Shown piece after piece: positions 23,673 to 51,255 of a DNA stretch of 64,000 nt. The DNA comes from Mytilus edulis. Its lineage: Eukaryota. A program made the position numbers and the translations under genes. The notes under the pieces are model-generated. The model worked only from the letters and a program-made list of their open reading frames with translations. It was not told the DNA's origin and made no database searches. The first letter of the stretch is position 1. Each line of letters begins with the position of its first letter. Where the stretch lies: the NCBI RefSeq assembly GCF_963676685.1, contig NC_092348.1, positions 19,840,001 through 19,904,000 on the forward strand, written 5' to 3'.

Positions 23673-26076
23673 ATGATCATGTTGTTTCACACAATTCTCG
23701 TAAGTTACACCAATATTTATTTAAAACAATAGGAAAAAATCTATATTCAGTGTTAGCACTTTATAAATGATACTATCAAAAATATTCATGTTTTCAAATA
23801 ATATTCGTTTTTCTTAATTCTTTTGCCTTACGCTTCACTTTACTTCATATACAAAGTGTATAAACTTAGTTATTCTAGCACATCTTTTAACTTTTGTTTT
23901 TTTCAATTTTACTCGATTGTTAGGCCTATGCTATCTCTTAAAATCAAAATTTGTAAAATGACAATCTTGTGTAATAAGATGGAACCATGCAATAAAACTA
24001 AAGTATAAAATGTATATATACATGTATATATATTTTTTCAAAGACGTCTTACGAAGTGTGTGTTGCTTTTCGACTAGAAGTGGTACGTAGTTCAAGTTCT
24101 GTTAGTTTTTTTTATCAAAATGTTTTACTGATGTTGTGTTAGTTGTTTACCTTATAAGTTGTTACAGTTCGTATTTTGTTTTAGTTTTTTTTACCAGTAA
24201 ACGTTTACGTATACGTAGGTTGTGTTAGTTTTGCTGTATAAATTTGTTGATGCTGAGGTTGCCGATCCTACAAGAATATGTACACCACCATTACCCGAAG
24301 ACGACGATTATTTTAAGGACTTAGAACAGGGAGATAAAGAAATAAGGTAAATGTCTTTGTAAGATAGGCTAGTGGAAGTTGGCTATTAAATTTGGTGGAG
24401 ACACTTTCAAATGAATATAATGGACTGCACAAGATTTTAATGCAACCAAAAAGCCTCATATTTTTTTCGGATTAACTATATGAATCTATGACAAACCAGA
24501 TTGATGTGAAAACGAATTTATGTTACTTTGATATATAATTATCATAAAGGTTGTATCTTTATCATTATCCTTATATTTATTGTTGAAATTTTATCTTTTA
24601 TTGTTTATATTTTAACTTTCATTGTCATCATTAGTGCTACATTTTTATTATCAAAAACGTGATTTTTGTCTGTAGTGTTTGCGTTTAAATTTTTATTTTG
24701 TATTTGTAGAGCTGAAATAAATAGAAGTTTAGATAGGGAAACAACGCTTAAGGTAGAAACAGATAGAGCTGTCAATGAGTTAATGTTTGAAGCTAATCCA
24801 GTGTAAGTTTTGATACTCTTGTATTGCAGTTAAGTTACCAAGCAAAGAAAAGATTTTAAAAAAATGAATAAAAAGTAAAATCACAAAAATACTGAACTCA
24901 GAGGAAAATCAATACGGAAAGTCGATAATCACATGGCAAAATCAAATAACAAAACGCATCAAAAACGAATAGACAAGAACTGTCATATTGTTGATGCTGA
25001 AGTTGCCGATCCTACAAGAATATGTACACCACCAATACCCGAAGACAACGATTATTTTAAGGACTTAGAACAGGGAGATAAAGAAATAAGGTAAATGTCT
25101 TTGTAAGATAGGCTAGTCGAAGTTGGCTATTAAATAAATGTAATACAATTATCCGTTTCAATATATAAAACAATACATCTAACGGTTACTGTCAAAGTAC
25201 CAGTTTGCTAAATTATTTTACAGGATAAAAAAAAACATGCAAATTGATGAATAAATATGCATTGCTACATAGATATTTTAATCAGGATTCAATTCTTTTT
25301 AATTTACATATTGAAGGAAGGATATCAATTGTTGATTTGTTTTCAGGTTTGTATGGACGGTTGGAATGTGTAAATATAAATACCTGTCTTACGTCCCTTC
25401 CAAACAAGTCTGGTACCAAGGGAAAATGTGTTATGTATTGCATTACTTCTGGTATCAAATCTGGAAATACTTGGATTGTCCGTAAGTACATGTATAACTT
25501 TTAATGTTTTTAGAACCAAAGTTACCTAGTCACGATCATTACATAACAGGGAGATAACTCTTTCAAAATCAACTGAATGTATTAATAACGTTCTATTAAA
25601 TTCTTTTCAATAAACAAAACTAGTGCTTGTCCAAACGTCTCTGTGACAGTGTGTTGTTCACGTTTTTTGAATATTATATGTTGTTGTCAGAAGGTCAAAG
25701 TAAATATTTTGTCAAAATTTAAAGAAAAAGAGCCAGATTAAATTTCGTCAAGGTGTATGGTACCACCTTCATTCTTTCAATAATGTACCATAAGGTCTCC
25801 AGCTATCTGTTTCCCCAATTTTGTCGAATTTATTTTAGTTTGATACTTATTACAATTTTTATGATTACTTTTTTGTTTCATTTCAGTAAGCAACTTTGCA
25901 GTCACGTTCCGTGTAATCAATGGACCCCATACGTGTACAGATGTGTTCCGTCTTGTAAGCGTTCCTTCTATATGTGGATAGCTTGTCCCACTGGTCACCA
26001 TAGTTTCCCGTATAAGTACATCAGAATAGAGAAAAGGTTACCACAATGTTGTGAATGTAAGAGATACAAGTGCTGA
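23673..26076 (+). CDS. Secreted Spaetzle-like cystine-knot protein, type A copy 1 (A1), 190 aa
   Basis: Exons 23673-23699, 24219-24346, 24710-24802, 25347-25481 and 25887-26076, all GT-AG (phases 0,2,2,2). Protein: MIMLFHTILVVLVLLYKFVDA|EVADPTRICTPPLPEDDDYFKDLEQGDKEIRAEINRSLDRETTLKVETDRAVNELMFEANPVFVWTVGMCKYKYLSYVPSKQVWYQGKMCYVLHYFWYQIWKYLDCPKQLCSHVPCNQWTPYVYRCVPSCKRSFYMWIACPTGHHSFPYKYIRIEKRLPQCCECKRYKC*. AATAAA at 26119. Exon lengths are identical in paralog A2. Confidence 0.9.
24988..25135 (+). pseudogene. Intronic partial copy of A1 exon 2 plus its donor site
   Basis: Near-identical to 24243-24391, keeps the GTAAAT donor at 25091 and lacks the acceptor. It follows a repeat fragment (~24860-24987) and is absent from the equivalent intron of A2. 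Confidence 0.9.
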
Positions 26077-27769
26077 AGATGTGAGAGCGAAAACCAGTTT
26101 TCATGAAAAATTAATGAAAATAAAATTTAAACATGTTAAAATCGTCTTATTATTTCTTAATACCTTAAAAAAGGATATATTCCACTATCTTAATATATTG
26201 ATTCGGAATTGTTGTATGACTCCCACTGAAACAACTATCCGTTTAAAGACCTAAGGAAAAGGATCTTAACAAAAACAGGTCACTGTATGCCTTTCAACAG
26301 TGCATCTAGCAAAAATCACATAGTAAAGTAACAAAGGCAGCATAAAAATATATACAGTTACAATAGAGATTATAAAGCGAGCCTGTTTTGTCATCTGTTA
26401 TGATAACAGATAAGTTTTAATTATCGAAGCCACAATCCTCTTTCACTCAATTGTGACATGATGAATTTGGCTTTTGAAGTACAATATTTCGGGTGCTATA
26501 TGTGGAGCATAATCTTCTAACTCTTCGGGAGCACCAATTGAGATAACCAAAATTATTGATGGAGTTCGGCTTGCTAAGCCTTCAGTTGTTTTAGGTTGTG
26601 ACTATTTTTTGGCCATGGCTTGGTCCGTGTGTTTTCAATTTATAAGTTTTGATTTTTTTTTTAATTTTTCTGCTCTTTTTTTCAATGTTGCATACTCTTA
26701 ATCCATAATCGAACTACTAAAATCAGCAAGCAAAATAAAGATGGTCATGCCGATCGTACATGTACTACACATGACGACATATTCAATCAACCAACAATTA
26801 ACCTAGCATTACAAGATGTGCCAAAGTTATCCAAATATTTTAAAAACAATTGCATTGTGAAGACTAACAGCATAATTTACAACAAAATGGTTACGAAAAT
26901 CAACTATGGCTGATATAAAGCCACGACAACCAGTGAACTAAAGGCACCATACTTGTATTTGGCATATAAACGAATGAGTTGGTGTTGAACAGGTTTTGTG
27001 ATCGCTTCACCCTCCTTTAACCTGAGACAAAACAATATCAACACTTCGTCACATTGACATTCGAAACAAGAGGTAAATACATACAAAATACAATCACATA
27101 CAATCATAGTGAAATAAGTAATAAAACAACTTAGAAATGAACTATATTATTAATTACTTTACTATATGATATTTTCGTTAACTTTGAAACGAATAAAGGA
27201 ACATTTTTAAGTACATTTATATTAACCAATGATAGTAGTCCTTTCATTTTTGATGCACTGGGATATTCAATATAGTATTTTAAACAGTGTGGTTACATCA
27301 CAACATAATAAAGAACAAACTTTCAAACTTAATCTAAAAGGGCTTAACTCATCAGATCAATACAAAGAAGAAAAACATCACAAAAAACAAATCGGACGTA
27401 GACGATATTTATACATACCCAACAACAAACAAAACACAAAGTACAGATCTAAAAGTATTCACTATTACTCACACCTAGTTCAAAGCCAATAACAACTTTA
27501 AAAAAACTTGTACAAGTATCAATCAACAAAGTTCAACTACTGATGAATTTATAATAAACACGTCATAAACATTCAGGGCAAAACACGACCTTGTGAAATA
27601 CCAAACTAAATGGTACAAATGTATCGACATATTGTATAGTACCGTTGAAAACAGTTGTATTGGAGTTTTTTTTATATGTATATTCTGAGACTTTTGTGTT
27701 ATAGTAGTCTCAGTTATATTGTAAACGGTGATTCGTTGTAATAGAACCTCCGGCAATTGTTTTTGTTCA

Positions 27770-28012
27770 GGGGCTATGGAAATTTTTTCTGGACACACTT
27801 TTTTTTCGCCTTCGGCAACAATATTTTTCTTTCAATTTTAGCATTATATATAGTGGTAGCTGAGGGTGAAACAAACAATTTTTTTTTCTCAGGGTCAAAA
27901 AACAAATTATTTTTTTTCTCCAAAAACTGGAAACAAACTTTTTTTTCGAAAAAAAAACCTAAAAACCACCTACCCCCCACCCCCCCACCCCCACCCCCCC
28001 CCCCCCCCCCCC
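27770..28012. repeat. Low-complexity MITE-like insert ending in a C-rich tract (27965-28012)
   Basis: T/A runs and a poly-C tract; not present in the right arm of the inverted duplication. Confidence 0.5.
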
Positions 28013-30357
28013 GGCGGATTTTGTACTTAGGAATATGTTTGTAAACGTTGTTTCTTTTAACGTTTGCTTTTTTTAAATAGTAAGCTTAGAAGTTACGAAG
28101 ATATACTCAGTTGTAAGCATACAAGTGCAGAAGGTTGGATTTTTTTTAATTCACCAACAACTAAATGTTTTTGATATTTTACCTTAAAATAGAATGATAA
28201 GATATTTTTAATTAACAATTGGTTCTAGAAATATTTTAAAACGTTGGAAGATACAATAGGTATGTCACATTAGCAGTCATAAACCGAAGAGGAACAAAAA
28301 ATGACCAGTATTTAATAAACAAAAGATAAACAAAAAGACAAACAAAAACTGCACAAAACTTGCCACAAGAAACCTGAGATCACCCCTAGTTTTTGGTGGG
28401 GTTCGTGTTGCTTAGTCTTTAGTTTTATATGATTGTTGTGTCGTCTGTAGTATTATTTGTCTGTTTGTTTTTTTTTTTGTTTGTTTTTGCCATGGCATTG
28501 TATATTTTCAATCTATGAGTTTGACTGTCCCTCTTGTATATTTCGCCCCTCTTTTACAGACTGAGAGGTATTAACCAAACTCAATTCGGAACGTATGGGC
28601 CCCATGCATGGTGATGCTTATAGCAAGTACACTGCCATTAACAAGTTGTGTCTGCCGATAACTCTAATAGAAGAACAGAGGACGGTTTTGTTTGAACGGA
28701 AAATATCTATTGCCATGTCTTGTCCATATGTTTTTATTAAGTTATGATTGCGTTTGTTATAGTTCCTATTCTTTCTACATTCAAAAATTTTAATTATATC
28801 TATAGCATCAGAGTTATAAATATATAATGATACTTCCAATTTACAAAAAAGGATATCTAGCATGTCTGTTAAATCTTTGAAAACATGATTTTAACTTCAT
28901 TATAGAAACAATTTAGTAAACTACCTTAGACCTTAACAATAAAATTCTGATATGAAACACATTCGGAGATCTGAGGAAATAGGAGGTATCAACTGGAATA
29001 AATGGTTAAATTAAGCGACCATTACACACAGAATCTGTATGTTAAGGTGTCTACCCCATTTTGAGGGGCAGGTGGAATATTTCTTCATAAGTATGTAAAG
29101 CTCACAATTGGTAAATTGAAATCATTTTTTTTTAAAGTGTGCATATTATTTTGACAAAGTATGACAAGAACAGATCCTTCTTTTTTCTGTATCTGATTCC
29201 TCTTTAATAACAGAATTCCAATATAGTTAAAGCTCAAATGTCAACTTGGTTTTTTTTCGTATTAATCTTTCAGTACCTGCAAATTCAACAAGTTTTATAT
29301 ATATATTTTTTTATTATTATTATTATTATTGTGTTTTTTCATCACTGAACTATAATTACAATTTAAAAGTCATATTCCTTTCATGTAGATGTCGACCTTC
29401 AAAGTATGTCTTTTGTTGTACAATATTATAGTAATAAATAAGAGGGGGGAGTAAATGACCTGGTCTGATAAGAGCTTCTAACGAATTACCTTGCATAAGA
29501 CAGGATAAAAATGAATAGTCTGCAACCAAAAATATGTACTAAAGCGGAAATAAAATTTCGCGAGGCGATGCCGCGGAAAAAATAAGCACGCGTAGCAACA
29601 GATGAATATAATTGATAATGAGCATAAAAGCCAAAATGTTAATTGATAACTAAATTCAATTCAAACAAAACACTTTTCTTTCAGAAATGCTTGTTTAACA
29701 AGCATGTTTGAAAGAAAAGTGTTCTGTTTGAATATATATAGTTTCAAGGGATGACTCCTAAGTAAAGGGAGCAAGTTATTAATCATCACCAGTCAGTTCG
29801 GCTTTTAGTTTTAAATGAAAGCAAGGAAACTATGAAAGTAACTTTTAAAAGTTAAAGAAGTTATCCCTTAAATTTGCAATATCCCCCTTTCTAAACAGGG
29901 AAAATATAACAAAAGGTCTGGAGTATGGTAGATAAATATTATGCTATAAATTATTTCTACATGTACTAGCTGACATAAACGAAAACAGAAAACTTGATGA
30001 TTGCAGAAAATTAACAATCTGCGACATCACAATCTGTTTACTTATTAAAATTAAGATATTAATAGAGACAAGCGTCACATCGTTCACAGCTTCGTATATA
30101 TTAAATATGTAAAAGGAAAAGTACACCAAGTATAGGATTGATTTTAAAGAGGCGTGTCTAAACGTAGCGAAATTGGTCTGTGAAAATTTTTTCTGATGAT
30201 CTTGTAAAGCCACGTGAAATCACGACTGTTTCCAACACAAGGGGAGTGAGTATCAAGAATACTTATTCAAACGGTATACGCCTACTCAATACGTGGTTGA
30301 GTTTTCTAACAACATAACTAGAAGTTGTTGGATTTTGATGTATTCAAGTTAACAACT

Positions 30358-33004
30358 ATGCATTATATTCTGGTAAGCAATATTTTTCAAGTTACATAGG
30401 AATTCTATGTTTGTATTCCAAAACAAATAAAGAAATTTCGCAAAGATACTGTTTTTGGCTTTTGAAAATTAAGTTAATGTTTCTTGTGACTTATTTCAAT
30501 CTTTATAAAGCTAGATTACTTTCAAAACCCTTACGCTTTTGTTCCGATTTTTAAGAGTGTTGTAATCCTGGTACCTTTGATAACTATTGTGTAATAAAAA
30601 AGGAACAGAAATTACGGAACCTCAATAGCCAATGGACAGTACAACATACCACCCTACTTCCCCGCAAAAAAAATGAAAGCAAAGACAAAAAAAAAAAACA
30701 ACAACACGTAGCATTTCAGTGAACACTTCAAAATTAAACAAGAACTAAAAATAAATAGCGTTTTAAGGGATCGCTTTAAAATCGTACAACAAGCAAGGCA
30801 TATTTTAGCGTCTTTTAAAGTAAATATTTGTTTTGGTGTTTTATTAATGTTGACTGCATTGTTTTAGTTTTTTGTTTGTTTTGCTTAATCTTTTATTTAA
30901 TCTGTTGTTAGAAATTTTTCAAGGAATACACATTGTTTTTAACCTGGTTTTTTTTTTTTACAAAATGTGAAAATCTTTTATTTTCTTTACTAGCTTTTAG
31001 TGTTGGCGGCTTTATCTTGCTATGCACAAGAGGATCAGTGTGATCCAAATGATGGAGACTGTTTTAGAGAGCCGTTTGCTGGTGTCATGACTGGCGAGGA
31101 TGACCATTGTCCGTAAGTATTTCACATCAATGAAAGTCGATTCATATTTTGAAGGGGGAAGGATGATTTTCAAATTAAGTTATCTGAAATTGGAAATGAC
31201 AAATAAAAGCAGCTGGATACAATAAAATACAGAAAACAACTATCGAAAATAGTTGGGCATAAAAGATAAAAACAAAGATTCGTTTTGGTAATATGGCTCG
31301 TTTGATTGGTGTGGTTTTAATATATTAAGTATGCAGTATTTGGAGAATGCATTGTTTTCACTAACAACAATTCGCATGTGATGTATAAATTACACTTTAA
31401 TTGATTAATTATTGTTCCAGGGTTGAAAAAATGCAAGCAACATTAGACAAAGATCCAGAGATAAAAGCTGAAGTCGAGGCTGCGAAATTAGCAATTGCTC
31501 ACTTGACAAAACCTCCTGTTTCTCCGTAAGTAAATTTGAAAACTAAATCAAATCCTAGTACTGTATGTACATGGCAAAATTCGACAGAAGCCGAGGCTCG
31601 AAAAGCTGAATATATATTGAATGTTGTGAACAAATACAAATAATGGCTTGGAAGAGAGAATTAAATTGAAGTTCGTAAATAAGCTCACCAACGTTTGTAT
31701 TTTGTAAATTTAATTCAATTCAATTTAAATTTATAAAAAATTTAAACGAATACATGGGAAATTTTTAGATCAGTAATATGACGTCCTTAATGTGTTTTGA
31801 AATATTCTATATATAACATGTATAATAATTTGTATCACGTTGTTTTCTTGTGAACGTTTTCGATTTCAAATCATCTGTTCTCATTGGCGTGTACATCACG
31901 TCTTCTGATGCTCATATTATTATATTTTTCGAAATATATTATGAGATTTCTAATAAAGCATTCACGAAAATGTATAGATTGTTCCGTCCGTTTGGTAATT
32001 ATAGTGACTGTCTAAGTTGAACTATGTACAGTTAAATAAATACTTCAACTAGTGTCTATGTATCAGCTGGTTAAAACTTCACTAAAATACTTATTTCGTT
32101 TTTAATATAGAGTTGATCTTGGAATTCCATTGTGTTACAAGACATATTCAATATTGAAAGTGCCTCCAAAAATATGGATAAAGAAGGGGTATTGTTATTT
32201 CCATTGGTATTATGTGAAAAGCCAAATAACCTATGTAAACTGTGGACAGTAAGTTATTTATTTTGTTAATGTTATACTATTCTTATTTTGCTGTTCGTAA
32301 TTTTATTGAAGAATCACTATAAAAGTAGGATCAAAATCTCAATGACACGCACTTCAATTTTATAGTATGAGAATTTATTACAATTTACTGATGCGATAGG
32401 AATTGTAGTGGTATATTTCAAGATCGGCTGCCATGCACGTGCATGATGAAATCCTGTCAAATATTAAAAAGAAGCATTCGATCCTTATATTTGCAATTTT
32501 ATACTACAAAAATAAAATTACGAGTTAAATCTGATTTTTTTCTATGCATTGTTGTGACGTTGTCTTGGAAGCATGTGATGCCATGTATGTTGATATTTGT
32601 ATGTACATGTATAATTTAGTAACGTTTCTCAATTCTTAATACGGACTCTTATGAAACATATCATACAGATAATTTTTAATTGTCGTTTTCAAACAACATA
32701 GTCTTTATGCTAGTAAAAAGAGAAAAAGAAGGGACAGGCATATCAGTTTCCCGGTATATCTCCAAATTAACCATATTATGTTCATCTATTTTTCAGCAAA
32801 CAACGCTGCAGCAATTTGCCATGTTCTATGCTGTGGTCCCCATCTTTCTGTTATCCTGCCAACTTCTTGTCACTGAAACTATACATGTTTTGTCCACATC
32901 TAAAACCGAAATACTGGTATCCATACTACGTCCGCCTTCCTCAGTGTTGTGAATGTAGGAGAACCTATTGTTGGTGGCTGCAAGCGCCCCAGAGTCCCAA
33001 ATGA
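30358..33004 (+). CDS. Secreted Spaetzle-like cystine-knot protein, type B copy 1 (B1), 194 aa
   Basis: Exons 30358-30372, 30994-31112, 31421-31525, 32111-32248 and 32797-33004, all GT-AG (phases 0,2,2,2, as in A). Protein: MHYILLLVLAALSCYA|QEDQCDPNDGDCFREPFAGVMTGEDDHCPVEKMQATLDKDPEIKAEVEAAKLAIAHLTKPPVSPVDLGIPLCYKTYSILKVPPKIWIKKGYCYFHWYYVKSQITYVNCGHKQRCSNLPCSMLWSPSFCYPANFLSLKLYMFCPHLKPKYWYPYYVRLPQCCECRRTYCWWLQAPQSPK*. AATAAA at 33034. Confidence 0.9.
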
Positions 33005-35786
33005 CCATTTATTCCTTAAGAAAGAATAGTTCTAATAAAAATGATCGTTTCCTGTAAACGTATTTGTTTATTCTGTTAGCCAACTTGTAAGTTATGTGTT
33101 GTTTACAATCATCGGTTCATTCTTAGTTTTATGGTATAGCAACAACATATTTTATACAGAATGAAAGATAATTAAGCGTGGAATAGCGAATCATTTTGCA
33201 CCGATACAAATAAAGCTTCAAATTAAGGATGTGATCAACGACACAAATATTATTAAACTTTTTTTTTAACTCAGCTATTAATAAATACATTGGTTATTGC
33301 ATGAATAGTGATGACAAATACATCTATCCTTGAAGTTCCTAGGATACATGATATATAGCACTGGAAATATAAAAATACACTCGGGTCAATATTCACCAAT
33401 TAAGTATTCATGCAATATTAACCCTTTTGTGATACAAAATTGAAGGGGGGATTTGTAATTGCATGGAAACTCTCAAAAAGCCATTATCAATAATACATTA
33501 TGTTAGTGTTTATATATTGGAACACAAGTATTTTTCAACGATTTCATTGGGCTATACACATGTTTCTGTAATTACAATTATCCGGAGCTAGGAATGAAAT
33601 GTTTGAAAAGTCAAATATAAAATTTGGTAGTTACAGGAAGATCACATCAGATAAAAAAGATTTTTAAAAATACTAGGTTCTGACTGCTTATCGTTCACTC
33701 TTTGATCCTGGTTCGTCATTGAATTCAAATCATTTATTTATTTGGTTATTTGTGCCGTTAAATTGAATTATAAATGATTTTGATCCTAAGCTATTCTTAA
33801 TCATTATATCCCTTTGTCCTGATACTTTTATATAGCTTGAAAAACTTTGGATTTTAATGTCAATAAGGTCAAGGTCACAGCAGCTATTGGAAGACTTAAA
33901 TGTTTGGCAATTTTTTAATTTCAAGATGTTAAAATTTGCTTCTCGAGTGACATTATTTGGAGAATATGTCAAAACTTCATCAAACCTATCTGAAGGATGC
34001 TCTTGAAAAGATCAGTATATTAAAGGTCAAAGTAACAGAACCTTTAAATATAACAAAACTTTGGGACAAGTCTTTCAGTTATATTCAGTTTTAAACCTAT
34101 CTCTTGTAAGTTCTTGATCTTGTGGTGAAAACGAGACCAATTGGTCAAATGTCAGCGCTACAACAGTAGTTCATTGCGAACAGAATAAGCTCCGTACAAA
34201 AATGTATTTCTAATACAAAACCACCAAGATTATATACCTTTCATGCTATAAAATATCTATGGATTTATCCATTTTTGCATGTTTGTAATATGTATAGAAA
34301 AGTGTATCAAATATTTCTGACAGGGCAAACGCACATTTAGAACATTAACATTTTTACCGTTTCGTGGTTTTAGGGTCAATAAAATATCATAGATTGCATT
34401 GAATAGTAGACAGACTTATGAATCTTTCTTCAAACGCTGACTATTGCAAGTGATAGAACTTTTACATATAAGGAGGGTGTTATATACTAGGAATACACAG
34501 GTTGAACTGTGAGATCATAATAACGCATGAAAGGGTTTGTACATTATATCAATAAATAGATGATACTTTAGACATCTTTCGTTTGATATAAATAAACGAT
34601 GCCAGGTATAAGACACACCAACTACTTACTATCATTCGATGTAAACTATGCTGCTTCGCTACCTTCAAGGTTATAGCCGCATAAGCTTGTGTTTAATATT
34701 TGTCAATAATATTTACATCGTAGAAAACAGGATTTTTTTTTCTTAAGAGGTCTTCTGTAAAAAGGTATTTTTTGAGTCCAATGGTTCTTACACGATATGA
34801 CAACTAACTGCTTTTATCAAATCTTCGTAAAGGTTATAAAAATTCTGGATCTGCCAACGAGCACATTTTACAACTCCTGGGTTTTGGAGGAGTTCTTGTA
34901 TCTAATTGTTTAGTGTCCATGTTTTGTCTGTGTGTGAACTATTGTTTGTTTTATCGTCCTTTTTCGTTTGCAGTTTTTTTTTGTCATGTCGTTGTCAGTT
35001 TGTTTCCGGTTTGTGAGTTGACTATTTAAGATATTGGAACAAAATATTCAATAATCAATGAACAAATAATATCAAGCTTATAACCCTTTTTATAAAGAGT
35101 GTCTGGTTTTTTTTCATTTAAGTTGTTTTATTTGTACATGTGGACGACAGAAGTGTACCTCTAACAGACTATTATAATCTTATGCAATAACATGTTTTAC
35201 CCCAACTTTCTGTTAGGTATCGTGTTACTCAATCTTGAGTATTTGGATTTTTGCTTTGTTTTGTTATTTGTTTCATTTTGTTCCAATGATATTGTTTGTC
35301 TTAATTCAACAAATGGTCTTATATAGAGCCTCTTTTAATCTTCTTTTTATACTTGTTATGATTAGTCGTTCATTTAAAGCCAAAGAGTGACTAAGAAATA
35401 GAAAAATGGTCACTGCATGTTTTCTTCTGACCGGCAATAAAACCCTTACCAAAGTGAGACGGTGGTTTTATGCGGAATGAACAAGTACGCAGCCACGTCA
35501 TATAGGGACGATTTATTCGTTGCCACGTTTAAACTGTTGTAACATCTCGCTGAATTCATTCTGATTTTAGTTTTTTAGAATTTTCCTCGGAGTTCAGTAT
35601 TTTTGTTATTGTAACTTGTTTACAAGCACTTCGGTTATTCGTAATCCTGCTTGTTAAGAAAAACAATTAATTCCCTTTGAATGACCTTTAAAAAATATAA
35701 AAATAAATAATCAAAATTTCATCTTCTACGGTGTTCGTTTCTTTCCCACAGAGTTCTTTTTAACTTGTTGACCTCTGGTCTCTGAT

Positions 35787-36698: not shown

Positions 36699-36876
36699 CA
36701 AACAACGCTGCAGCAATTTGCCATGTTCTATGCTGTGGTCCCCATCTATCTGTTATCCTGCCAACTTCTTGTCACTGAAACTATACATGTTTTGTCCACA
36801 TCTTAAACCGAAATACTGGTATCCATACTACGTCCGCCTTCCGCAGTGTTGTGAATGTAGGAGAACCTATTCTTAG
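36699..36876 (+). pseudogene. Orphan type-B last exon (B'), no upstream exons
   Basis: AG acceptor at 36697-8; KQRCSNLPCSMLWSPSICYPANFLSLKLYMFCPHLKPKYWYPYYVRLPQCCECRRTYS*. The last Cys is lost and the stop is premature relative to B1 and B2. Confidence 0.85.
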
Positions 36877-40067: not shown

Positions 40068-40306
40068 AGTTATCAAAAGTACCAGGATTATAATTTAGTA
40101 CGCCAGACGCGCGTTTCGTCTACATAAGACTCATCAGTGACGCTCAAATCTAAATATTTATAAAGCCAAACAAGTACAAAGTTGAAGAGCATTGAGGATC
40201 CAAAACATCAAAAGTTGTGCCAAAGATGGCTAAGGAAATCTATGCCTGGGATAAGAAAATCCTTAGTTTTTTCTAAAAATTCAAAGTTTTGTAAACAGGA
40301 AATTTA
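40068..40306 (+). mobile_element. Interspersed repeat at the inner end of the right arm
   Basis: CGCCAGACGCGCGTTTCGTC...GTTGAAGAGCATTG family; related pieces at ~14310-14545 (+) and ~13530-13600 (-). Confidence 0.7.
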
Positions 40307-40851
40307 TCGGTGAAGAATAGTTTTGTTCCAAAATATTAAATAAGCACTAACATACTATATTATTGATAATGGCTTTTTGAGCGATCACATGCAATTACGA
40401 ACTTTCGATCCTTTTTTTATTGTATATGATCATAAAGGGGTTAATATTGCAGGAATATTGGTGAAAATTTACCCGAGTAAATTTTTATATTTCCAGTGCA
40501 ATATATACATTCTACGAAGGATACGTGTATTTGTCACCACTGTTCATGCATTAACTATCTTATTTAATAACAAAGATATAAAAAAAATGTTTTAAACATA
40601 TTCTTGTCTTTGATGACATCCTTGATTGGTAGTTTTATTTGCATCAATGCAAAATGATACTCGATTCCACGCTTACTTTTCTTTAATTCTGTATGAAATA
40701 TTTTGTTGCTTTACAACAAAACTGAGAATAAACCAATGATTGCAGACAACACATAACTTAAGAGTTGACTAATAGAATAAACAAATACGTTTACAGGAAA
40801 CGATCATTTTTATTACAACTATTCTTAAGGAATAAATGGTCCTCTGGGACT

Positions 40852-43622
40852 CTATGGCGCTTGCAGCCACCAACAATAGGTTCTCCTACATTCACAACAC
40901 TGAGGAAGGCGGACGTAGTAAGGATACCAGTATTTTGGTTTAAGATGTGGACAAAACATGTATAGTTTCAGTGACAAGAAGTTGGCAGGATAACAGAAAG
41001 ATGGGGACCACAGCATAGAACATGGCAAATTGCTGCAGCGTTGTTTGCTGAAAAATAGATGAATATAATATGGTTAATTTGGAGATATACCGGGAAACTG
41101 ATATGACTGTCCCTTCTTTTTCTCTTTTTACTAGCATAAAGACTATGATGTTTAAAATGACAATTAAAAAAGATCTGTATCATATGTTTCATAAGAATCC
41201 GTATTAGGAATTGCGAGACGTTACTAAATTATATATGTACATACAAATATCAACATACATGGCATCACGTGCTTGCAAAGACAACGTCACAACAATGCAT
41301 AGAAAAAGTCAGATTGAACTCGTAATTTTATTTTTGTAGTACAAAACTGCAATTTTGTATAAGGATCGAATGCTTCTTTATTATTTTTGACAGATTTTCA
41401 TTGTGCACGTGTTTGGCAGCCGATCTTGAAATATAACAATATCATTCCTATCGCATCAGTAAATTGTAATAAATTCGCATGGAAACACAACACTATAAAA
41501 CGGAAGTGCGTGTCATGTCAATAAAATTACGAACAGCAAAATTAGATTAACATTAACAAAATAAATAACTTACTGTCCACAGTTTACATAGGTTATTTGG
41601 CTTTTCACATAATACCAATGAAAATAACAATACCCCTTCTTTATCCATATTTTTGGAGGCACTTTTAATATTGAATATTTCTTGTAACACAATGGACTTC
41701 CAAGTTCAACTCTATATTAAAAAAGAAATAAGTATTTTAGTGAAATTTTTACCTGCTGATACACAGACACTAGTTGAAGTATTTATTTATCTGTACATAG
41801 TTCAACTTAGACAGTCACTATAATTAAAAATCGGACGGAACAATCTATACATTTTCGTGAATACTTTACTTGTGATTTTGGTGAAATTTGCACACAAAAC
41901 TAAATAAAATTTCTGGGTTATTTTCATCCGTTAAGTTCGTTGTTCACCTTTTCCCACTAAATCACCGATAAATACACACACTAGTAACTATCAATCCATG
42001 TATGTATGATGTAGACATTATACGTACTTTAAGTAGTGTTGAATTGTTTCCTTAGAACTCTCATAATGTATTTCTAAACATATCTTAATAATATGAGCAC
42101 CAGACGACGTGATGTGCACGCCAATGAGACGACATCTAAACAGATGATTTGAAATCAAAACATACACAAGAAAACAACGTTATACAAATTATTATATATG
42201 GAATATTTTAAAACATACTATCAAGGGCGCCATATTACTGATTTACAAATTTCCGATGTATTTGATTTTATTTATTATAAGTTTTAAATTGAATTGAATT
42301 GAAATTGAAAAATACAAACGTTGGTAAGCTTATATACGAACTTGAATTAAATTCTCTCTACCAAGCCATTATTTGTATTTGTTTACAACATTTAATATAT
42401 ATTCAGCTTCTCGAGCTTCGCCTCCTGCCGATTTTTGCCATGTACATGCAGTACTTGGATATAATTTAGTTTTCAAATTCACTTACGGAGAAACAGGAGG
42501 TTTTGTCAGGTGAGCAATCGCTAGTTTCGCAGCCTCGACTTCAGCCTTTATCTCTGGGTCTTTGTCTAATGTTGCTTGCATTTTTTCAACCCTGGAATAA
42601 TTAACGAAGTAAAGTGTTATTTATACATCACATGCGTATTGTTGTTTAGTGAAAAAAATGCATTCTGTAAATATTGTATACTGAATATCATAAAACCACA
42701 CCAATCAAACGAGCAAAATTACTACAACGAATTTGTCTTTTCATCTTTTAATGCCCAACTATTTTCGATAGTTGTTTTCTGTATTTATTATCCAGCTGCT
42801 TTTATTTGTCATTTGCAATTCAGATAATTTAATTTGAAAATCCTCCTTCTCCCTTCAAAATATGAACTGATGTGAAATACTTACGGACAATGGTCATCCT
42901 CGCCAGTCATGACACCAGCAAACGGCTCTCTAAAACAATCTCCATCATTTGGGTCACACTGGTCATCTTGTGCATAGCAAGATGAAGCCGCTAACACTAA
43001 AAGCTAGTAAAGAAAATAAAAGATTTTCACATTTTGTAAAAAAAAAACTTTAAAAAAAAACAAAGAGTATTCATTAAAAATTGTCTAACAACAGCTTAAA
43101 TAAAAGGTTCAGCAAAACAAACAAAAATCTAAAACAAAGCAGTCAACATTAATAAAACACAAAAACAAATATTCTCTTTAAAAGACGCTAAAATATGCGT
43201 TGCTTGTTGTACGATTTTAAAGTGATCCTTAAAATGCTTTTTATTGTAAAAAATGTTCTTGTTTAATCTTGAAATGTTCACTGAAATGCCACGTGTTGTT
43301 TTTGTTTTGGGGGTATTTTTTTTGTGTTTTTTTTTGTCGGGGAAGTAGGGTGGTATGTTGTATTGTCAATTAGTATATTGGGGTTCCGTAATTCCTGTTA
43401 CCCTTTTTCATTGCACAAGACTCTTAAAATCGAAACAAAAAACCTGCAAGTTGTCAAAGTTTTCTAGCTATATAAAGATCGCAATAAATAACAAAGCACA
43501 TTATTTCTTAATTTTCAAAAGCCAAAAACAGTATCTTTGCGATGTTTCTTTATTTGTTTTGGAATACAAACATAGAAATCATATGTAACTTGAAAAATAT
43601 TGCTTACCAGAATATAATGCAT
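40852..43622 (-). CDS. Secreted Spaetzle-like cystine-knot protein, type B copy 2 (B2), 190 aa
   Basis: Exons 43622-43608, 43003-42885, 42591-42487, 41711-41574 and 41047-40852; exons 1-4 have the same lengths as in B1 and all introns are GT-AG. Ends ...RLPQCCECRRTYCWWLQAP* (TAG). About 5 aa substitutions versus B1. Confidence 0.9.
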
Positions 43623-45736
43623 AGTTGTTAACTTTAAGTCATCAGAATCTAGCAACTTCTAGTTATGTTGTTAGAACGCTCCACCACGTATGGAGGAGGC
43701 GTATACTTTAAAATAAGTCTTATTTGATATTCACTCCTCTTATGTTCGGATATACTCGTGCTTTTACGTCATGTACATGGCTTTACAATCTCATTAGAGC
43801 AAAATTTCACAAACTAATTTCGACACGTTTAGACACGCCTACTTGGTGTACTTTTCTTTTTACATATTTCATATATACAAAGCTGTGAAAGATGTGTCTA
43901 TTAATATCTTAATTGTTATAGGGGAACATATTGTGATGTCGCAGATTGTTAATTTCTTACAATCATTAAGTTTTTTAGAATTTTTCTGTTAATGTCAGCT
44001 AGTACAATTAGAAATAATTTATAACATAATATAGTTTTACCATCCTCAAGATATTTTTGCTATATTTTTCCTGTTTAAAAAGGGGGAGGGATTGCAGATT
44101 CAACGGAAAAGTTCTTTAATTTTCTATTGTACTTACTTTCAACGTAAACTAAAAGACTGTTGATGTTTTTCAAACTTGCTCCCCTTACTTCGGAGTCACC
44201 CCTTGAATACCTCTCTCTATTTATATTCTTGTCAAACGAGCATATCTGTAAGCCTTAGTATTTTCTGTAATTTGGAGCTAGTCATCAATTAATATTTTTG
44301 TTTCTATATGAACCATAAGTTCATTTTCATCCTGTCTTACGCAAAGGTTACTCATGCTCAGCTCTTATCAGACCAGATCTTGCATTCCCGCCCCTACGGG
44401 AAATCAAATAATCGCACCTTAAATTTACACTGATACATTAATGTATCAATTTTAAACACAGTGATTTGGTTTGGAGGCAAATTACATCGAAAGTGGAAAT
44501 TATAAACAAAAATAAGGCCATTATAAATTAATGATTCTCTTTAACGAAGGGACGTTATGTTTTCATCCTTTATTTTGTAACTAGTTTCGAAGGAAATTTA
44601 TAGCGAAATAACGAAAATAGTATGTCTCTTTGATTTTTAAAAGCATGGAGGCCAATGACACTAGACATTTAAATATATATATATATATATTGAACAAATA
44701 ACAGAAATACGATAAAAAAAAACAAAAAAAAAAAACCAAACAAACAAACAAAAGCGCATGCAAGCGTTTTGAAATCATAAATCAATTAAATCCATTTCGT
44801 GGTAAATAGAAACAATCTGTACTTTTCAAGGTCGACATCAAGTTACATAAAAGGAAGATGTTTTTAAAAGTATAATAGTAAAGTGACGAAAAAAAATCCG
44901 CAAGAATAATAAACAAAAAAAAGATATAACTTGTTAAATTTGCAGATAATAAAAATTTAATACGGGGAAAAACAAGTTGACTTTTTAAATGAATCACAAT
45001 TTATTTTCGGATAAATTATTCAACTTTTCCAAACATTAGAAAATCGCCTTTTGCATTAACTATATTCAAATGTTGTTATTGAAGAGGAATCTGCTATGTT
45101 ATTCCTTTTCTTGTCATACTTCTTGTTCCATTCAATTAAAATAATATGCCAAAATCAAAATGATTTCAATTTTCCAATTGTAAGCTTTCCATATTTATGT
45201 TGAAATACTCCACCTGCACCTCCAAATAGGGCAGCTATCTCCAATATGATTGAAATTCCAATTATGTTTGTACTCGTCGCTTAAATATATTTATTCTTAT
45301 TCATTTTAAATTGATCAGATTGTAATACATTGTAACCCCTAGTTGTTAAACTATTCGAATTAAAATGTTTTAGATTAGAATTTCTTTGTTAATGTTTATT
45401 GTTAACATTTAGTTCACTATTTCTTCTCCATGGAAAAGTTAAAGTTCATGTCTCCAAAGGTTTAACAGACATGCTAAATTTCCTATTTTGTAATCAGAAC
45501 TCATGTTTGAATATCATACACAGCTATATTCCTAATTTTATGACTGTTAGTTGATACTTTTTAAATTTCATCAAAAGTGAATAGACATGAAAACATTATG
45601 TCTAGGATTTCTTAAACCTTTACTGAGAGGAATAATTTGATATTTGTTTGCTTTAAGATTTGTATATCTCAAGTCAAACGAAATGGGGGAAGGGATGTAG
45701 TATTGCATCTGTCCATCATAAAGTTAAAGTCTACCA

Positions 45737-46094
45737 GTTTAGTTTAAACACATTTATTTTAAGTGGATTATGAAACAAGTTATTGCAACTTATATTAATC
45801 CCTTTCCACTTTGCGGGTGCTAGTGCTGCCTTGTAGCGGAATTAGTATTCTCTTTTTCGAAATCTACAAGGGTGTCTTTTATGACATGAAAGAGATGTGA
45901 CTTTCTATCAACACGGGTAAGCCATTTATTATCTCCTTCCGACGGACTATCATCGTTTCTCAAGACCACACTCGCAAATGGTGTTGAGGGGGCACCGAAA
46001 ATTCGGTCCCTGGAATGTTCTCCACGGAACGGGTATCGAAACAAGATCATTGCGTTAGTAGTCCGATGCACTAATCACTACACCATGCCGCTCC
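45737..46094 (-). mobile_element. tRNA-derived SINE
   Basis: Minus-strand head GCGGCATGGTGTAGTGATTAGTGCATCGGACTACTAACGC...GTTTCGATACCCG (Pol III A and B boxes) and a TAAAC-type tail. A headless copy lies at ~50240-50488. Confidence 0.75.
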
Positions 46095-46666
46095 ATCGAT
46101 CTGTGGAAGTATAAGTTATAGTTCATGAAATTTTGTCTGAAATAACCGAGGGATCCTGAAAAAATAAGGTTATATTGACCTACAATTCACATATGAGTGA
46201 CTGATTGAAGTTCGATCGCGTTAGAGTCCATATCTGAGAAATAATGTTTTGGCAGTAATTGCGTCTGTAATAGTCAGAATCGAGGGTCCTAAAAATATTT
46301 CATCTTGGCATAAAGTTCATTGATGAGTAAATGAGGTGAAAGGTTGCGTTTAAGTCCATATCTGAGATGAAGAATACAATTTTGTCAGTAGATGCAAGTT
46401 GATAGTCATGAGTTTCAAAATCAAATCTTGAAAATGAATCAGATGATATTCTATTTCATCAACTGCACTCAAAAGATATTCGATTTCATCAACTACACAA
46501 TTAAGTTATATCTTATAGCTTATCATAACTTAATGTATTGGACCAGTTCTGTCAATTGAGGATGAAAATCAACTAAATATACAGATTGTTTATATAATAT
46601 TTGCACTTTTTTACACCAACAACCTCCATATTTCCGGCCCAAAAATTTGGTGAAGGAACCGATTAA

Positions 46667-47240
46667 GGGCATACGATACAGTTTTGATCCCGTGTTTAAA
46701 GTTTTATGAAAATTTCAGTATATGCTATTTTTTGCCTGATTAAATCAATTATGTAATAAAAAACATACCTTCATGTGCTACTTTTTTAGTTAAATGAGGT
46801 CGAAATTTTGTATATTTGCTAAAAATTCAGATTTGTGGCCGCTTTTTTTCCTTTCGAAAAAGAGACATAACCTTTTTTGTTTTAAAAGATAAACACAAAT
46901 TGTTTTTTGTTAAATAATTTGTAATTTCTGTATTTTATAAGTATCCTATACATTTATTCATTTTTTATTCAGAAATAACTCATATTTATCAAATGGTCAT
47001 GAATTGAGAAAAGAAAAAAAATTGCACTATTTACTGTCTTATAAAATTTGGTCCACATAATCTCCCTGCAAAATGAAACAAAATTTCTTTTAAAAAAAGG
47101 GGTCCATGCACTCGTTTCAAATTTAAATCAGTTCGAATTAAAAAAATTCAGTCGAAAAATGCACCTTTTTCCGGACGTCCCGAAAATTACATTTTACGTT
47201 AGCAACGTCATTATATCCCCTGTAACTGTTTCTTATGCCC
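46667..47240. mobile_element. Non-autonomous DNA transposon with TTAA target duplication (Kolobok-like)
   Basis: TTAA|GGGCATACGATACAGTT ... AACTGTTTCTTATGCCC|TTAA. Confidence 0.8.
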
Positions 47241-48800
47241 TTAACGCTCTTGTACAAAGAATATATATTCTTCTGAACAACACAATAGCCGGAAGTTCTA
47301 TAACAACTTCTCATCGTTTACAATATACATATAAAAAAAATCCAAATACAAAATATTCTCAACGGTACTACAATCTGTTGATACCATTTAGTTTGGTATT
47401 GCACAAGGTCGTGTTTTGCTCTGAAAGTTAATGACGTCTTTATTCTAAATTTATCGGTTGTTGGGACTTTGCTGATCGATACTTTTACAAGATTTTTTTA
47501 TAAGTCGTTATTGGCTTTGAACTAGTTGTCAATAACTGTATATACTCATAGATCTGTACTTTGTGTTTTGTTTGTTGTTGGGTATGTATAAATATCATGC
47601 CACGTCCGGTTTGGTTATTATGATGTTTTTCTGCTTTGTATCTAATAACAAAAGTATTGAACTCCGAGGAAAATTCAAAACGGAAAGTCCCTAATCAATG
47701 CAAATGACAAAATCAAACGATAAAACACATCAAACGAATGGACAACAACTGTCTTATTCCTGACTTGGTACAGTGATTTTCAAATGTAAAAAATGGTGTA
47801 TTGAACATATTTGCCACTGGACGTACGTTAATATATCTTAAGCCCTCTTAGATTAAGTTTAATAGTTTGTTCTTTATTATGTTTTGATGTAACACCACTG
47901 CCCCAGGTTAGAGGATGGTGAATCGATCACAAACCTGTCCAACCCTGATTCATTCTTTTATGTGCCAGGTACAAGTAGGGAGCCTGTTGGTCAATGGTTG
48001 CCGTTATTTCATATCAGCCATAGTTGTTTTTTGTAAATCATTTTGTTATTAATAATGCTGTTAGTCTTCACAAGTGAAATGTTTAATGTTTGTATAAATT
48101 TGGCATATCTTGGAATGCTAGGTTGATTAACGCCCATAAGCAAATATGTAACACATGTGTGGGACGATTGGTATGACTATCTTTATTTTGCTTGCTGATT
48201 TTGGTAGTTCGAGTATGGATTAAGAGTTTGCAACATTTAAAAAGGGGCAGAAAAAAATAAAAAAGGAACATTTAAACTCATAAGTTGAAAACAGAATGAC
48301 CAAGCCATGGCAAGAATATAATTACAACATAAAAAAAACTGAATACTTAGCAAGACGAACCCAATCAAAAACTTTGGTAATCTCAATTGGTGCTCTGGAA
48401 GAGTTCGAAAATTATTCTCCACATATGGCACCCGAAATATTGTTCTTCAAAGGTCAAATTCATTAATGTCACAATTGAGCGACAGAGGACAAAACTGTTG
48501 CTTCTAGAATTAAACTTATCTGTTATCATAGCAGATAACGAAACAGGCCCACCATATCATCTCTGCATATATTTGTATGCCTTTTATACTTTATGAGGCT
48601 TTGCGCTGCATTGTTAAAATGCATACAGTGACTTGTCATAATGTTTCAGTGGAAGTAATACGTTCTTCTTCGTATCAATAGACTAAGATACAATGCATTT
48701 CTTCTTTTGTTAAGGTATTCAAAAATTAAAAGCCGATTTTAACACGTTTAAATTATTTATTCATTAATTGACATGAAAACTGGTTTTGGCTCTCACATCT

Positions 48801-51255
48801 TCAGCACTTGTATCTTTTACATTCACAACATTGTGGTAACCTTTTCTCTATTCTGATGTACTTATACGGGAATCTACGGTCACCAGTTGGACAAGCTATC
48901 CACATATAAAAGGAGCGTTTACAAGATGGAACACATCGGTACACGTATGGGGTCCATTGATTACACGGAACGTTACTGCAACTTTGCTTACTGAAATGAA
49001 ACAAAAAGGTAATCATAAAAATTGCTCAGTATCATGTTAAAATGAATTCGAAAAAATGGGGGAAACAGATAGCTGGAGACCTAATGGGACATTATTGAAA
49101 GAATGAAGGTGGTACCATACACCTAGACTAAAATTAATTTGGTTGGTTTAAATTTCATCAATTTTGACAAAATATTTATTTTGACCCTTTCACAACAACA
49201 TACAATATTCAAAAAACTTGATCAACACATTTTATTGGAAAAATGTCATAGAGAAGTTTTGACAAGCACTAGTTTTAATCATTGAAAAGTTTTTATGCAT
49301 TTCCTTAACAATTAGAACGTGATTAATACGTTCAGTTGATTCTGACAGAGTTATCTCCCTGTTATGTAATGATAGAGACTGGTTATTTTGGTACTAACAA
49401 CATTAAAAGTTACACATGTACTTACGGACAATATACGTGTCTCCAGATTTGATACCAGAAGTAATGCAAGACATAACAACCATTCCCTTGGTACACGACT
49501 TTTTTGGAAGGTGCATAAGATCGGTATTTATATCTACACATTCCAACCGTCGATACAAACCTGAAAACAAATCAACAATTGATATCATCCATCAATATGT
49601 AAATAAAAAAAATAGAATCCTGATTAAAAATATCTAAAAAAGCAATCAACATTTATTCATCAATTTGCATGATAATTTTTTTTTATCCTGTAGAAATAAT
49701 TTAGCTAACTGGTACTTTGACAGTAACAGTTAACTGTATTGTTTTAAATATTGAATCGGATAATTTTATTACATTTATTAATTTTTTAACATTTGTCTTT
49801 ACTTAGTTAGTAACTTTTTAAACTGCAGTACAAGAGTATAAAAACTTACACTGGGTTAGCGTCAAACATTAACTCATTGACAGCTTTATCTGTTTCGACC
49901 TTAAGCATTGTGTCCCTATCTAAACCTTTCACTATTGCAGCTCTGAAAATACAAAAAAAAATGTATTTTGACACAAACACTACAGACAAACTTGATGTTT
50001 TTATAACAAAAATATAACACTAATGATGACAATGAAAGATGGAATATAAACAATAAAAGATCAAGTTTCAACAATAATCAGAAGGATAAGGATAAAGATG
50101 ATCTACAACCTTTATGATAATCATATTACAAATTAAAGTAATATAAATAAGTTTTCACATCAATCTGAGTTGTCAAAGATTCAACTATTTAATCAGAACA
50201 AACATAAGGCACATTTGGCCGCTTTAAAATCTTCTCGCTCTCCCTTGCCACCATTTGCTAGTATTGTCTTGAGAAATGATGACAGTACATCAGAATGGGG
50301 ACGTTAAATGGCTGAACCGTGTTATGAGAGAGCCATATCTCTTGCACGTAAAATACATCCTTGTAGATTTCGAAAAAGAGCAGGCTAATGCCGCTACAAG
50401 GCAGCACTCGCACTTGCAAAGTGGAAAGGGATTAAAATAAGATGCAAAATCTTGTTTCCCAATTCACTATTAATAAATAAACTAAACGTCAAATTTAACA
50501 GCCAAATTCCAATAGACTTTATATTATAAATTTATTTACCTTATGTTTTCATCTTTCTGCTCCAAGTCCCCAAAATAATCATCATCCTCAGGTGCTGGTG
50601 GTACACATATTCTTGTAGGGACGGAAACTTCAGCATCAACAGATTTATACAGGACAACTAACACAACCTACATAAAACTTTTTAATGAAAAACTAACACA
50701 AATTACGTAAAACATCTTTGTAAAAGACTAACATTCCATAAGTAAAAATTCAATGGCCAAAAATAAACAAGACCTTTGCAAAAATTCTATGGTCAAAAAC
50801 TAACACAACCTAGGTAACACTTCTAGTTGAAAACCAACACGAACTTCGTAAAAAATCTTTATAAATAAAAATACATTTGATACTATATAGTTACATTGCA
50901 TGGTTCCAACCTTGATACACAAGATTCGCATTCTGACAAATTATCTTTTTAAGAGATGGCATAGGCCAAAAATATAGTAAAATTGGAAATACACGAGTAA
51001 AATGCTTTGCTAGAATAAATGTATACATACTTGTAGTGTATATAACGCTTTGGTATTTAGATGACAAGCACACATCGCTTACAGTAAAATAAAGCGCATG
51101 GAAACGAATTGAGAAACACGCATATAGTTTTTTTTTAAATATGAGCATTTTTGATAGCATCTATAAAATGCAAACACTGTATATATTTATTTTTCGTATT
51201 GTTTTACATAAATATTGATGTAACTTACGATAATTTTGTGAAACAACATGATCAT
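48801..51255 (-). CDS. Secreted Spaetzle-like cystine-knot protein, type A copy 2 (A2), 190 aa
   Basis: Exons 51255-51229, 50667-50540, 49942-49850, 49560-49426 and 48990-48801, all GT-AG. Protein: MIMLFHKIIVVLVVLYKSVDA|EVSVPTRICVPPAPEDDDYFGDLEQKDENIRAAIVKGLDRDTMLKVETDKAVNELMFDANPVFVSTVGMCRYKYRSYAPSKKVVYQGNGCYVLHYFWYQIWRHVYCPKQSCSNVPCNQWTPYVYRCVPSCKRSFYMWIACPTGDRRFPYKYIRIEKRLPQCCECKRYKC*. Confidence 0.9.
50240..50488 (+). mobile_element. 5'-truncated SINE copy in A2 intron 2
   Basis: Reverse complement of the body and tail of 45737-46094; absent from A1 intron 2. Confidence 0.75.

What the first reader, a model, noticed from the sequence alone, without database searches (positions are those of the whole stretch)
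25347..49560. Asymmetric evolution after one duplication: A diversifies, B is conserved
Seen (manual alignment): A1 and A2 differ at about 37/190 aa, B1 and B2 at about 5/190, although both pairs sit in the same duplicated arms. In A exon 4, 12 codons change amino acid and only 2 change silently (W>S, L>R, W>V, KM>NG, KYLD>RHVY). A exon 5 has about 7 silent and 5 replacement changes. B exon 3 has 5 silent and 0 replacement changes. All Cys are retained. Inference: positive selection on the first finger of A (variable specificity subunit) and purifying selection on B (constant partner). The silent differences in B argue against recent gene conversion as the sole cause.
Basis: partly seen in the sequence, partly recalled or inferred. 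Interest (0 to 1): 0.72.

Follow-up and report, generated by a model that had tools for sequence, protein, structure and literature searches.

The report
Converted partner in paired cystine-knot genes
Two neighbouring mussel genes for predicted cystine-knot proteins were copied together, and one pair of copies now looks far more alike than the other, likely because it was partly overwritten by its twin later and then kept constant, not because the other gene is under positive selection.

Summary
The counts are exact: A1/A2 differ at 37 of 190 residues, B1/B2 at 5 of 190, and the per-exon counts hold. The inference is only partly right. Normalised per site, A exon 4 has dN/dS 0.64-0.76, not above 1, and 0.42-0.44 once a third copy is added. 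Twenty of the 37 changes lie in the signal and pro-region. A third A-B pair upstream (A0/B0) shows that both genes evolved alike on the older branch (omega 0.51 vs 0.54). The outlier is B1/B2 (omega 0.10). Non-coding DNA over the B gene body (30784-33052) is 8.8% divergent between the arms against 15.1% elsewhere, while distance to the third arm does not fall (0 of 300 permutations). This points to a later gene-conversion tract, followed by real purifying selection. A1 exon 4 is identical in three Mytilus species. A and B are predicted Spätzle/NGF/coagulogen-like cystine-knot proteins. The family always occurs as two-gene cassettes: 3 A-B pairs here and 7 alternating C-D pairs on another chromosome. 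An A-B heterodimer has only weak modelling support.

The parts
23264..33542 (+). Arm 1 of the inverted duplication (A1 + B1)
   Evidence: self-blastn blocks of 65-90% identity to 51656-40306
40306..51656 (-). Arm 2 of the inverted duplication (A2 + B2)
23673..26076 (+). Gene A1, CDS exons 23673-23699, 24219-24346, 24710-24802, 25347-25481, 25887-26076; 190 aa
   Evidence: model; equals P0019/XP_071171957.1; all four junctions in contigs of 3 of 4 runs laid (X1, X4, X7), two of them in the fourth
48801..51255 (-). Gene A2, CDS exons 51255-51229, 50667-50540, 49942-49850, 49560-49426, 48990-48801; 190 aa
   Evidence: model; equals P0002/XP_071173073.1; transcription not tested
30358..33004 (+). 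Gene B1, CDS exons 30358-30372, 30994-31112, 31421-31525, 32111-32248, 32797-33004; 194 aa
   Evidence: equals P0013; junctions 2-4 in run X4, junction 4 also in X7
40852..43622 (-). Gene B2, CDS exons 43622-43608, 43003-42885, 42591-42487, 41711-41574, 41047-40852; 190 aa
   Evidence: equals P0012, which is the same sequence in M. edulis and M. galloprovincialis; contigs with B2-type letters in X4 and X7 laid on B1 (my reading of tables 3, 4, 7)
30784..33052 (+). Inferred gene-conversion tract shared by B1 and B2 (arm-1 coordinates; about 43200-40800 on arm 2)
   Evidence: 167 of 259 informative non-coding sites group arms 1+2, against 291 of 745 outside; chi2 50; 0 of 300 block permutations reach it
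25347..25481 (+). A1 exon 4 (first hairpin/finger of the predicted knot): 12 residue changes against A2
49426..49560 (-). A2 exon 4; carries K92R, W105V, K109N and M110G, which are absent from the nine other A proteins compared
36239..39260 (+). Tandem copy of 32344-35354 holding an orphan B exon 5 (from 36699) with a stop at 36874, after the last knot cysteine
24988..25135 (+). Partial copy (97% identical) of A1 exon 2 inside A1 intron 3; skipped by the spliced contigs

Best explanation
The B copies look conserved likely because a gene-conversion tract of about 2.3 kb overwrote one B gene with the other well after the A-B cassette was duplicated, and purifying selection then held them alike, while A1 and A2 keep the full, ordinary divergence of this family. 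In order: (1) Shown: an A-B cassette exists in three copies, and outside B the three arms are nearly equidistant (15-17%). (2) Shown: on the older branch A and B gained amino-acid changes at the same relative rate (omega about 0.5). (3) Inferred: conversion between the inverted arms reset B1/B2 at about 60% of the arms' age and erased the changes B had gathered. (4) Shown: since then B1/B2 evolved at omega about 0.1. (5) Inferred: A1 is now constrained too, so each copy likely changes in a burst after duplication and then freezes; the A1/A2 comparison still contains the burst and the B1/B2 comparison does not. The proteins are predicted to be secreted precursors with an acidic pro-region and a basic, aromatic-rich cystine knot, and A and B likely act together as a dimer.
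For: Non-coding divergence arm1-arm2 is 0.088 in the tract and 0.151 outside; distances to arm 0 are 0.188/0.193 inside and 0.167/0.174 outside, which rules out constraint or a low mutation rate in B introns. Branch omegas: A0 0.51, A1+A2 0.56, B0 0.54, B1+B2 0.10; A0=B0 p=0.91, A0=A1/2 p=0.83, B0=B1/2 p=0.005. A M. galloprovincialis pair with adjacent accessions on one contig (VDI00726/VDI00725) couples an A2-like A to a B that differs from edulis B1 at 15 residues before the tail, as expected of an unconverted partner. A1 exon 4 has 0 differences in M. galloprovincialis (P0015) and M. trossulus (P0017). A trossulus protein (P0007) joins an A1-like pro-region to an A2-like exon 4, a further sign of exchange among copies. 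Fold: NGF Z 6.2, Spätzle Z 6.0, coagulogen Z 5.4; atlas top hits are Spaetzle clusters at 0.92-0.93. Cassettes: 7 C genes alternate strictly with 7 D genes on contig C12. A1:B1 complex score 0.49 against best control 0.01, rated weak.
Against: Conversion explains only a factor of about 1.7-1.8; the omega difference of about sixfold needs the burst-then-freeze step, which is inferred from proteins only, since no ortholog DNA was available. The identity of A1 across species could reflect introgression or very recent divergence. M2a fits the A copies slightly better than M1a (2dL 4.35, p=0.11, a class at omega 1.95), and the A2 branch has a point estimate of 1.26 in exon 4, so some positive selection on A is not excluded. 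The galloprovincialis pair could be a fourth paralogous pair and not the A2 cassette. The direction and mechanism of the overwrite (conversion or a second segmental copy) were not determined. All fold matches lie below Z 8 and Foldseek found nothing at E<=0.001.
Confidence: 0.62

Rival explanations
1. A2 is under relaxed constraint, as a redundant or weakly expressed copy, and this adds to the A1/A2 gap.
For: A2 alone among the Mytilus A, B, C and D proteins aligned has lost the Trp at 105. The branch omega for A2 is 0.68 overall and 1.26 in exon 4, against 0.45 and 0.23 for A1. The exon-4 nonsynonymous rate does not differ from that of the flanking introns (p=0.31).
Against: The A2 frame, splice sites and all 13 Cys are intact. 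Exon 5 omega is 0.17-0.20, p<0.01 below 1. An A2 gene with nearly the same exon 5 is annotated in a second M. edulis assembly (P0004). Branch estimates rest on few changes.
Confidence: 0.17
2. One reading: positive selection diversifies the first finger of A as a variable specificity subunit, against a constant B.
For: 12 residue changes in 45 codons, several of them radical. M2a point estimate of about 35% of sites at omega 1.95. Weak modelling support for A-B binding.
Against: Exon-4 omega is 0.42-0.76 in every whole-exon estimate. M1a vs M2a is not significant and candidate sites are not concentrated in exon 4. In exons 4+5, A and B omega do not differ (0.38 vs 0.15, p=0.27). 12 of the 20 exon-4 base differences touch another difference (p=0.01 against random; 147 of 386 do so in introns, Fisher p=0.06), so some may be single multi-base mutations; KM>NG can be aligned as one 2-base shift. 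On the older branch, B exon 4 has the higher omega (1.92 vs 0.25, p=0.048). In the C-D cassettes neither knot domain is variable.
Confidence: 0.13
3. Conversion alone, recent or repeated within exons, explains the B similarity, with no difference in selection.
For: The tract covers B exons 2-5 almost exactly.
Against: B exons carry 15 silent against 5 replacement changes, and dS (0.126) is not below the non-coding divergence of the tract (0.088). At omega 0.55, roughly 25-30 replacement changes would be expected (my arithmetic).
Confidence: 0.05

Closest known systems
Spätzle / neurotrophin (NGF) / coagulogen branch of cystine-knot proteins (Pfam PF16077, PF00243; PDB 3e07, 1sg1, 1aoc)
   Same: Hydrophobic N-terminus, pro-region and C-terminal knot. 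The predicted fold aligns best to NGF (Z 6.2, rmsd 4.0, 91 residues), Spätzle (Z 6.0, rmsd 6.9, 81) and coagulogen (Z 5.4, rmsd 4.3, 127, reaching into the helical pro-part). Atlas neighbours are Spaetzle clusters.
   Different: No Pfam hit for A or B; paralog D scores 12.3 bits against a cut-off of 27. The pro-region is short (about 70 aa), partly helical in the model, and has no dibasic or furin motif in A1, A2, B, C or D. The knot carries net charge +12 to +16 and 18-23% aromatic residues. Genes come in fixed two-gene cassettes, whereas Spz1C is described as a homodimer (PMC9427763, passages).
Glycoprotein-hormone and bursicon heterodimers (common subunit plus specific subunit; the description of the GPH heterodimer is from an abstract in the listing, the rest is recalled)
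   Same: Two related cystine-knot genes kept together, plausibly dimerising (weak support).
   Different: Here both genes duplicate together 1:1 and both diverge on the older branch, so there is no common subunit. Fold matches to GPH chains are lower (Z 2.5-3.3).
Concerted evolution by gene conversion between arms of inverted repeats (general process, recalled)
   Same: A bounded tract of lower divergence with an unchanged outgroup distance, and mosaic proteins among copies.
   Different: An ordinary instance of the process; the tract coincides with one gene of a two-gene cassette.

Membership tests
Spätzle (PF16077) | Pfam profile score above the gathering cut-off | tested here: not met
   No family for A or B exons or proteins; paralog D E=0.27, 12.3 bits < 27
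Spätzle/NGF-type cystine knot | C-terminal cystine-knot fold with two beta-hairpin fingers | tested here: met
   Model with mean pLDDT 70 and about 80 over the knot; the top 26 VIA rows are all cystine-knot proteins, but best Z is only 6.2; Foldseek best E 0.009, neurotrophin-3; nine Cys-containing or flanking knot columns invariant plus one Cys nearly so in 16 family members. Disulfide pairing was not read from the model.
Spätzle (PF16077) | Secreted precursor with signal peptide and pro-domain | tested here: inconclusive
   A hydrophobic N-terminus and an acidic pro-region are visible in the sequence; no signal-peptide predictor was run
Spätzle (PF16077) | Proteolytic release of the knot (trypsin-like or furin) | tested here: inconclusive
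   No dibasic or RxxR motif in the pro-region of 7 of 8 proteins; monobasic cleavage is not excluded
Spätzle (PF16077) | Disulfide-linked dimer that binds a Toll receptor | not testable with these tools
   A has an odd number (13) of Cys after the signal region; no receptor test
Common-plus-specific subunit heterodimer (glycoprotein-hormone logic) | One subunit invariant across paralogous dimers | tested here: not met
   B0 is 82% and the galloprovincialis B (P0014) 90% identical to B1; B0 branch omega 0.54
Common-plus-specific subunit heterodimer | The two gene products bind each other | tested here: inconclusive
   Score 0.49 vs best control 0.01, rated weak; runs agree in at least 78% of contacts, partner pLDDT at least 75; homodimers and close relatives not controlled
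Positively selected domain | dN/dS significantly above 1 in A exon 4 | tested here: not met
   0.76, 0.64-0.66, 0.42-0.44; M1a/M2a p=0.11; power is low with 2-3 sequences
Gene-conversion tract | Bounded drop in paralog divergence with unchanged outgroup distance and a shift in site patterns | tested here: met
   0.088 vs 0.151; 167/259 vs 291/745; 0 of 300 block permutations

The most novel reading that the evidence does not exclude
Mytilus has an undescribed family of Spätzle/coagulogen-like cystine-knot proteins that work as obligate heterodimers encoded by two-gene cassettes (3 A-B, 7 C-D), amplified only as pairs. They act either as combinatorial ligands for the expanded bivalve Toll-like receptors or as a charge-masked, protease-activated assembling secretion, with the two partners changing together in bursts after each duplication.
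Probability: 0.3. Interest if true: 0.62.

Novelty: new member of a known kind. Interest (0 to 1): 0.33.

Why it matters
The asymmetry itself is an ordinary product of conversion plus purifying selection. It is a caution against reading codon counts from two paralogs as positive selection. What remains worth following is the family. A 2020 mussel paper states that no spaetzle homolog had been described outside arthropods except in one clam (PMC7773633, passage), and bivalves have very large TLR repertoires (PMC10279657, abstract start and passages). A transcribed, 1:1-paired set of about 20 Spätzle-like genes in mussels gives testable candidates for endogenous ligands, or for a coagulogen-like secretion.

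Tried and rejected
Pfam on exons and on whole A and B proteins: no family. phmmer against PDB sequences: 0 matches at E<=10. The first structure model, from 13 close sequences, had pLDDT 49 and was discarded. The three-way intron table used an A0 exon 3 boundary that was off by two bases and a misaligned A intron 4 (p 0.48 to A0), so only its arm1-arm2 values are quoted; the blast-based analysis replaced it. Eight C-terminal B codons were dropped from the three-way models as poorly aligned. IQ-TREE codon runs on the C and D copies gave no readable omega, so only protein differences are used. The run search listed no holder on record as RNA; the spliced GT-AG joints are the evidence for transcription, and contig depth was not used to rank genes. 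Transcription of A2 was not established. A mis-assembled haplotype was rejected: the arms are 15% divergent, and neighbouring A1/B1- and A2/B2-type genes are annotated in a second M. edulis assembly and B1/B2 in M. galloprovincialis. Literature: 0 papers hold any of six accessions or gene ids, 0 hold all five terms, and the listings showed no title on this family. Subscription journals and supplements were not searched, so a mention in a proteome table may exist. Three look-ups in earlier scan findings returned nothing.
Full report
Anatomy. Self-comparison shows an inverted duplication (23264-33542 against 51656-40306) and a tandem copy of 32344-35354 at 36239-39260. Each arm holds two five-exon genes in the same orientation, A then B (models). 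A search of the own genome found a third A-B pair, A0/B0, about 48-36 kb before the window start. All six models equal M. edulis RefSeq proteins letter for letter. Contigs laid on the A1/B1 arm join all four A1 introns at GT-AG in 3 of 4 runs, one of them (X1) as a single 622-base contig with no difference; the fourth run (X2) joins two of them and carries a variant exon 2. B1 junctions and contigs with B2-type letters appear in X4 and X7. A2 transcription was not established.

The observation. The contrast is significant (Fisher p=0.0009; codon LRT p=0.002).

Positive selection on A exon 4 is not shown. The 12:2 ratio ignores silent changes inside replaced codons and the roughly 3.3:1 excess of nonsynonymous sites. 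NG86 gives dN 0.154, dS 0.202, ratio 0.76. ML codon models give 0.64-0.66 for the pair (not different from 1) and 0.42-0.44 with A0 (p=0.03-0.04 below 1). Exons 1-3 hold 20 of the 37 changes and have the higher omega (0.68-0.81). M2a does not beat M1a (p=0.11) and its candidate sites lie in all five exons; with three sequences this test is weak, so some positive selection is not excluded. Twelve of the 20 exon-4 base differences are adjacent to another (permutation p=0.01; 147 of 386 in introns, Fisher p=0.06), so some may be multi-base mutations; that such mutations inflate selection tests is recalled, not from a call. The A1 exon-4 peptide is identical in M. edulis, M. galloprovincialis and M. 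trossulus, with 0 and 1 differences over the whole compared region. Four exon-4 changes are private to this A2 among 10 A proteins, including loss of a Trp kept across the Mytilus family.

B is not a constant partner. On the branch to the older pair, omega is 0.51 for A and 0.54 for B (p=0.91). A keeps this rate (0.56, p=0.83), while B1/B2 drop to 0.10 (p=0.005). Exon 4 differs at 13 sites for A0-A1 and at 11 for B0-B1. Within the knot (exons 4+5) the A/B difference is not significant (0.38 vs 0.15, p=0.27).

The arms are not of one age. Among non-coding columns aligned in all three arms, a tract at 30784-33052, spanning B exons 2-5, has arm1-arm2 divergence 0.088 against 0.151 outside and 0.158 over the A gene, while distances to arm 0 are 0.19 inside and 0.17 outside. 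167 of 259 informative sites inside group arms 1+2, against 291 of 745 outside, and 0 of 300 block permutations reach the observed chi-square. This is the signature of a later overwrite. It explains about 1.7-1.8-fold of the gap. In M. galloprovincialis an A2-like gene sits beside a B that differs from B1 at 15 residues, which fits an unconverted partner; it could also be a fourth pair. Mosaic proteins such as P0007 point to repeated exchange.

Mechanism, with status. Shown: a triplicated cassette, equal omega on the old branch, a younger B tract, low omega in B1/B2, and A1 protein stasis across species. Inferred: conversion erased B's early divergence, and each copy changes in a burst and then freezes. 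Confidence 0.62.

What the proteins are. Pfam finds nothing for A or B. A profile search of 1.84 billion representatives gave 10 hits at E<=0.001: four Mytilus representatives, one scallop and one oyster protein, three unnamed similar proteins, and one 6679-aa protein matching only the acidic pro-region, which I take as spurious. Atlas neighbours are Spaetzle clusters (0.92-0.93; one source of evidence). The better model (pLDDT 70) aligns to NGF, Spätzle and coagulogen at Z 6.2, 6.0 and 5.4, which are modest scores, though the top 26 rows are all cystine knots; Foldseek's best E is 0.009. All eight proteins checked have an acidic pro-region (net -6 to -12) and a basic knot (+12 to +16) rich in aromatic residues. 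So it works like a Spätzle/NGF-type precursor, but membership of PF16077 is not met.

Pairing. On contig C12, seven C genes (minus strand) alternate strictly with seven D genes (plus strand) over 16.37-16.62 Mb; both knots are nearly uniform among copies. With the three A-B pairs, that makes ten two-gene cassettes, though these derive from only two ancestral cassettes. An A1:B1 knot model scored 0.49 against a best control of 0.01 (weak; the mark was reached by 51 of 78 solved complexes and 2 of 108 mismatched pairs, but at 0.60 or under by only 5 of the 78 and by all 4 mismatches that passed; runs agree in at least 78% of contacts, partner pLDDT at least 75). Cystine-knot dimers are well represented among solved structures and A and B are relatives, so the pass may reflect likeness and does not separate hetero- from homodimer.

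Literature seen. PMC7773633 (one passage: no spaetzle homolog described outside arthropods except in Paphia undulata); PMC5484132 (one passage); PMC11087794 (three passages); PMC10279657 (eight passages and abstract start); PMC9427763 (twelve passages on Spz processing and dimers). Seven searches showed no paper on this family; supplements and subscription journals were not searched.

Verdict. The asymmetry is ordinary concerted evolution plus purifying selection. The residual interest lies in an apparently undescribed, pair-encoded Spätzle-like family. Interest 0.33.

Noticed in passing
G000:C12:16.37-16.62 Mb (loci L012-L032): Seven divergently oriented pairs of paralogs (C on minus, D on plus) in strict alternation, with the same family signature; D2, D3 and D6 form one subtype and D1, D4, D5 and D7 another, so the array is mosaic.
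   Followed up: partly
G000:C5:19791120-19804130 (window -48.9 to -35.9 kb): A third intact A-B pair (A0/B0); A0 has an extra Cys at 101, and B0 lacks the Cys at 184 of B1/B2.
   Followed up: yes
L033:3972-6067 (G000:C8 about 30.05 Mb): A further, more distant family member, resembling the scallop protein P0025; no partner gene was looked for beyond the 10 kb fetched.
   Followed up: partly
window 36699-36891: Orphan B exon 5 with a stop after the last knot Cys. Two database B proteins (P0015, P0001) end in this copy's tail type without that stop, suggesting hybrid last exons from unequal crossover or alternative last-exon use.
   Followed up: partly
window 13288-8800, minus strand: Gene for a NIT (nitrate/nitrite-sensing) domain joined to a guanylate cyclase domain, with two hydrophobic segments; Pfam NIT E 6.5e-21, Guanylate_cyc E 4.8e-17.
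   Followed up: partly
window 61671-61901, minus strand: Lysine/alanine-rich terminal exon that looks like the C-terminus of ribosomal protein L13 (recalled resemblance, not tested).
   Followed up: no
window 35782-36198 and 60331-61276: Minisatellites of about 55 bp and 161 bp; the first lies at the junction of the tandem B 3' duplication.
   Followed up: no
window about 18090-18150: A frame here matches the N-terminus of the fused galloprovincialis model P0015, which supports synteny of that contig with this locus.
   Followed up: partly
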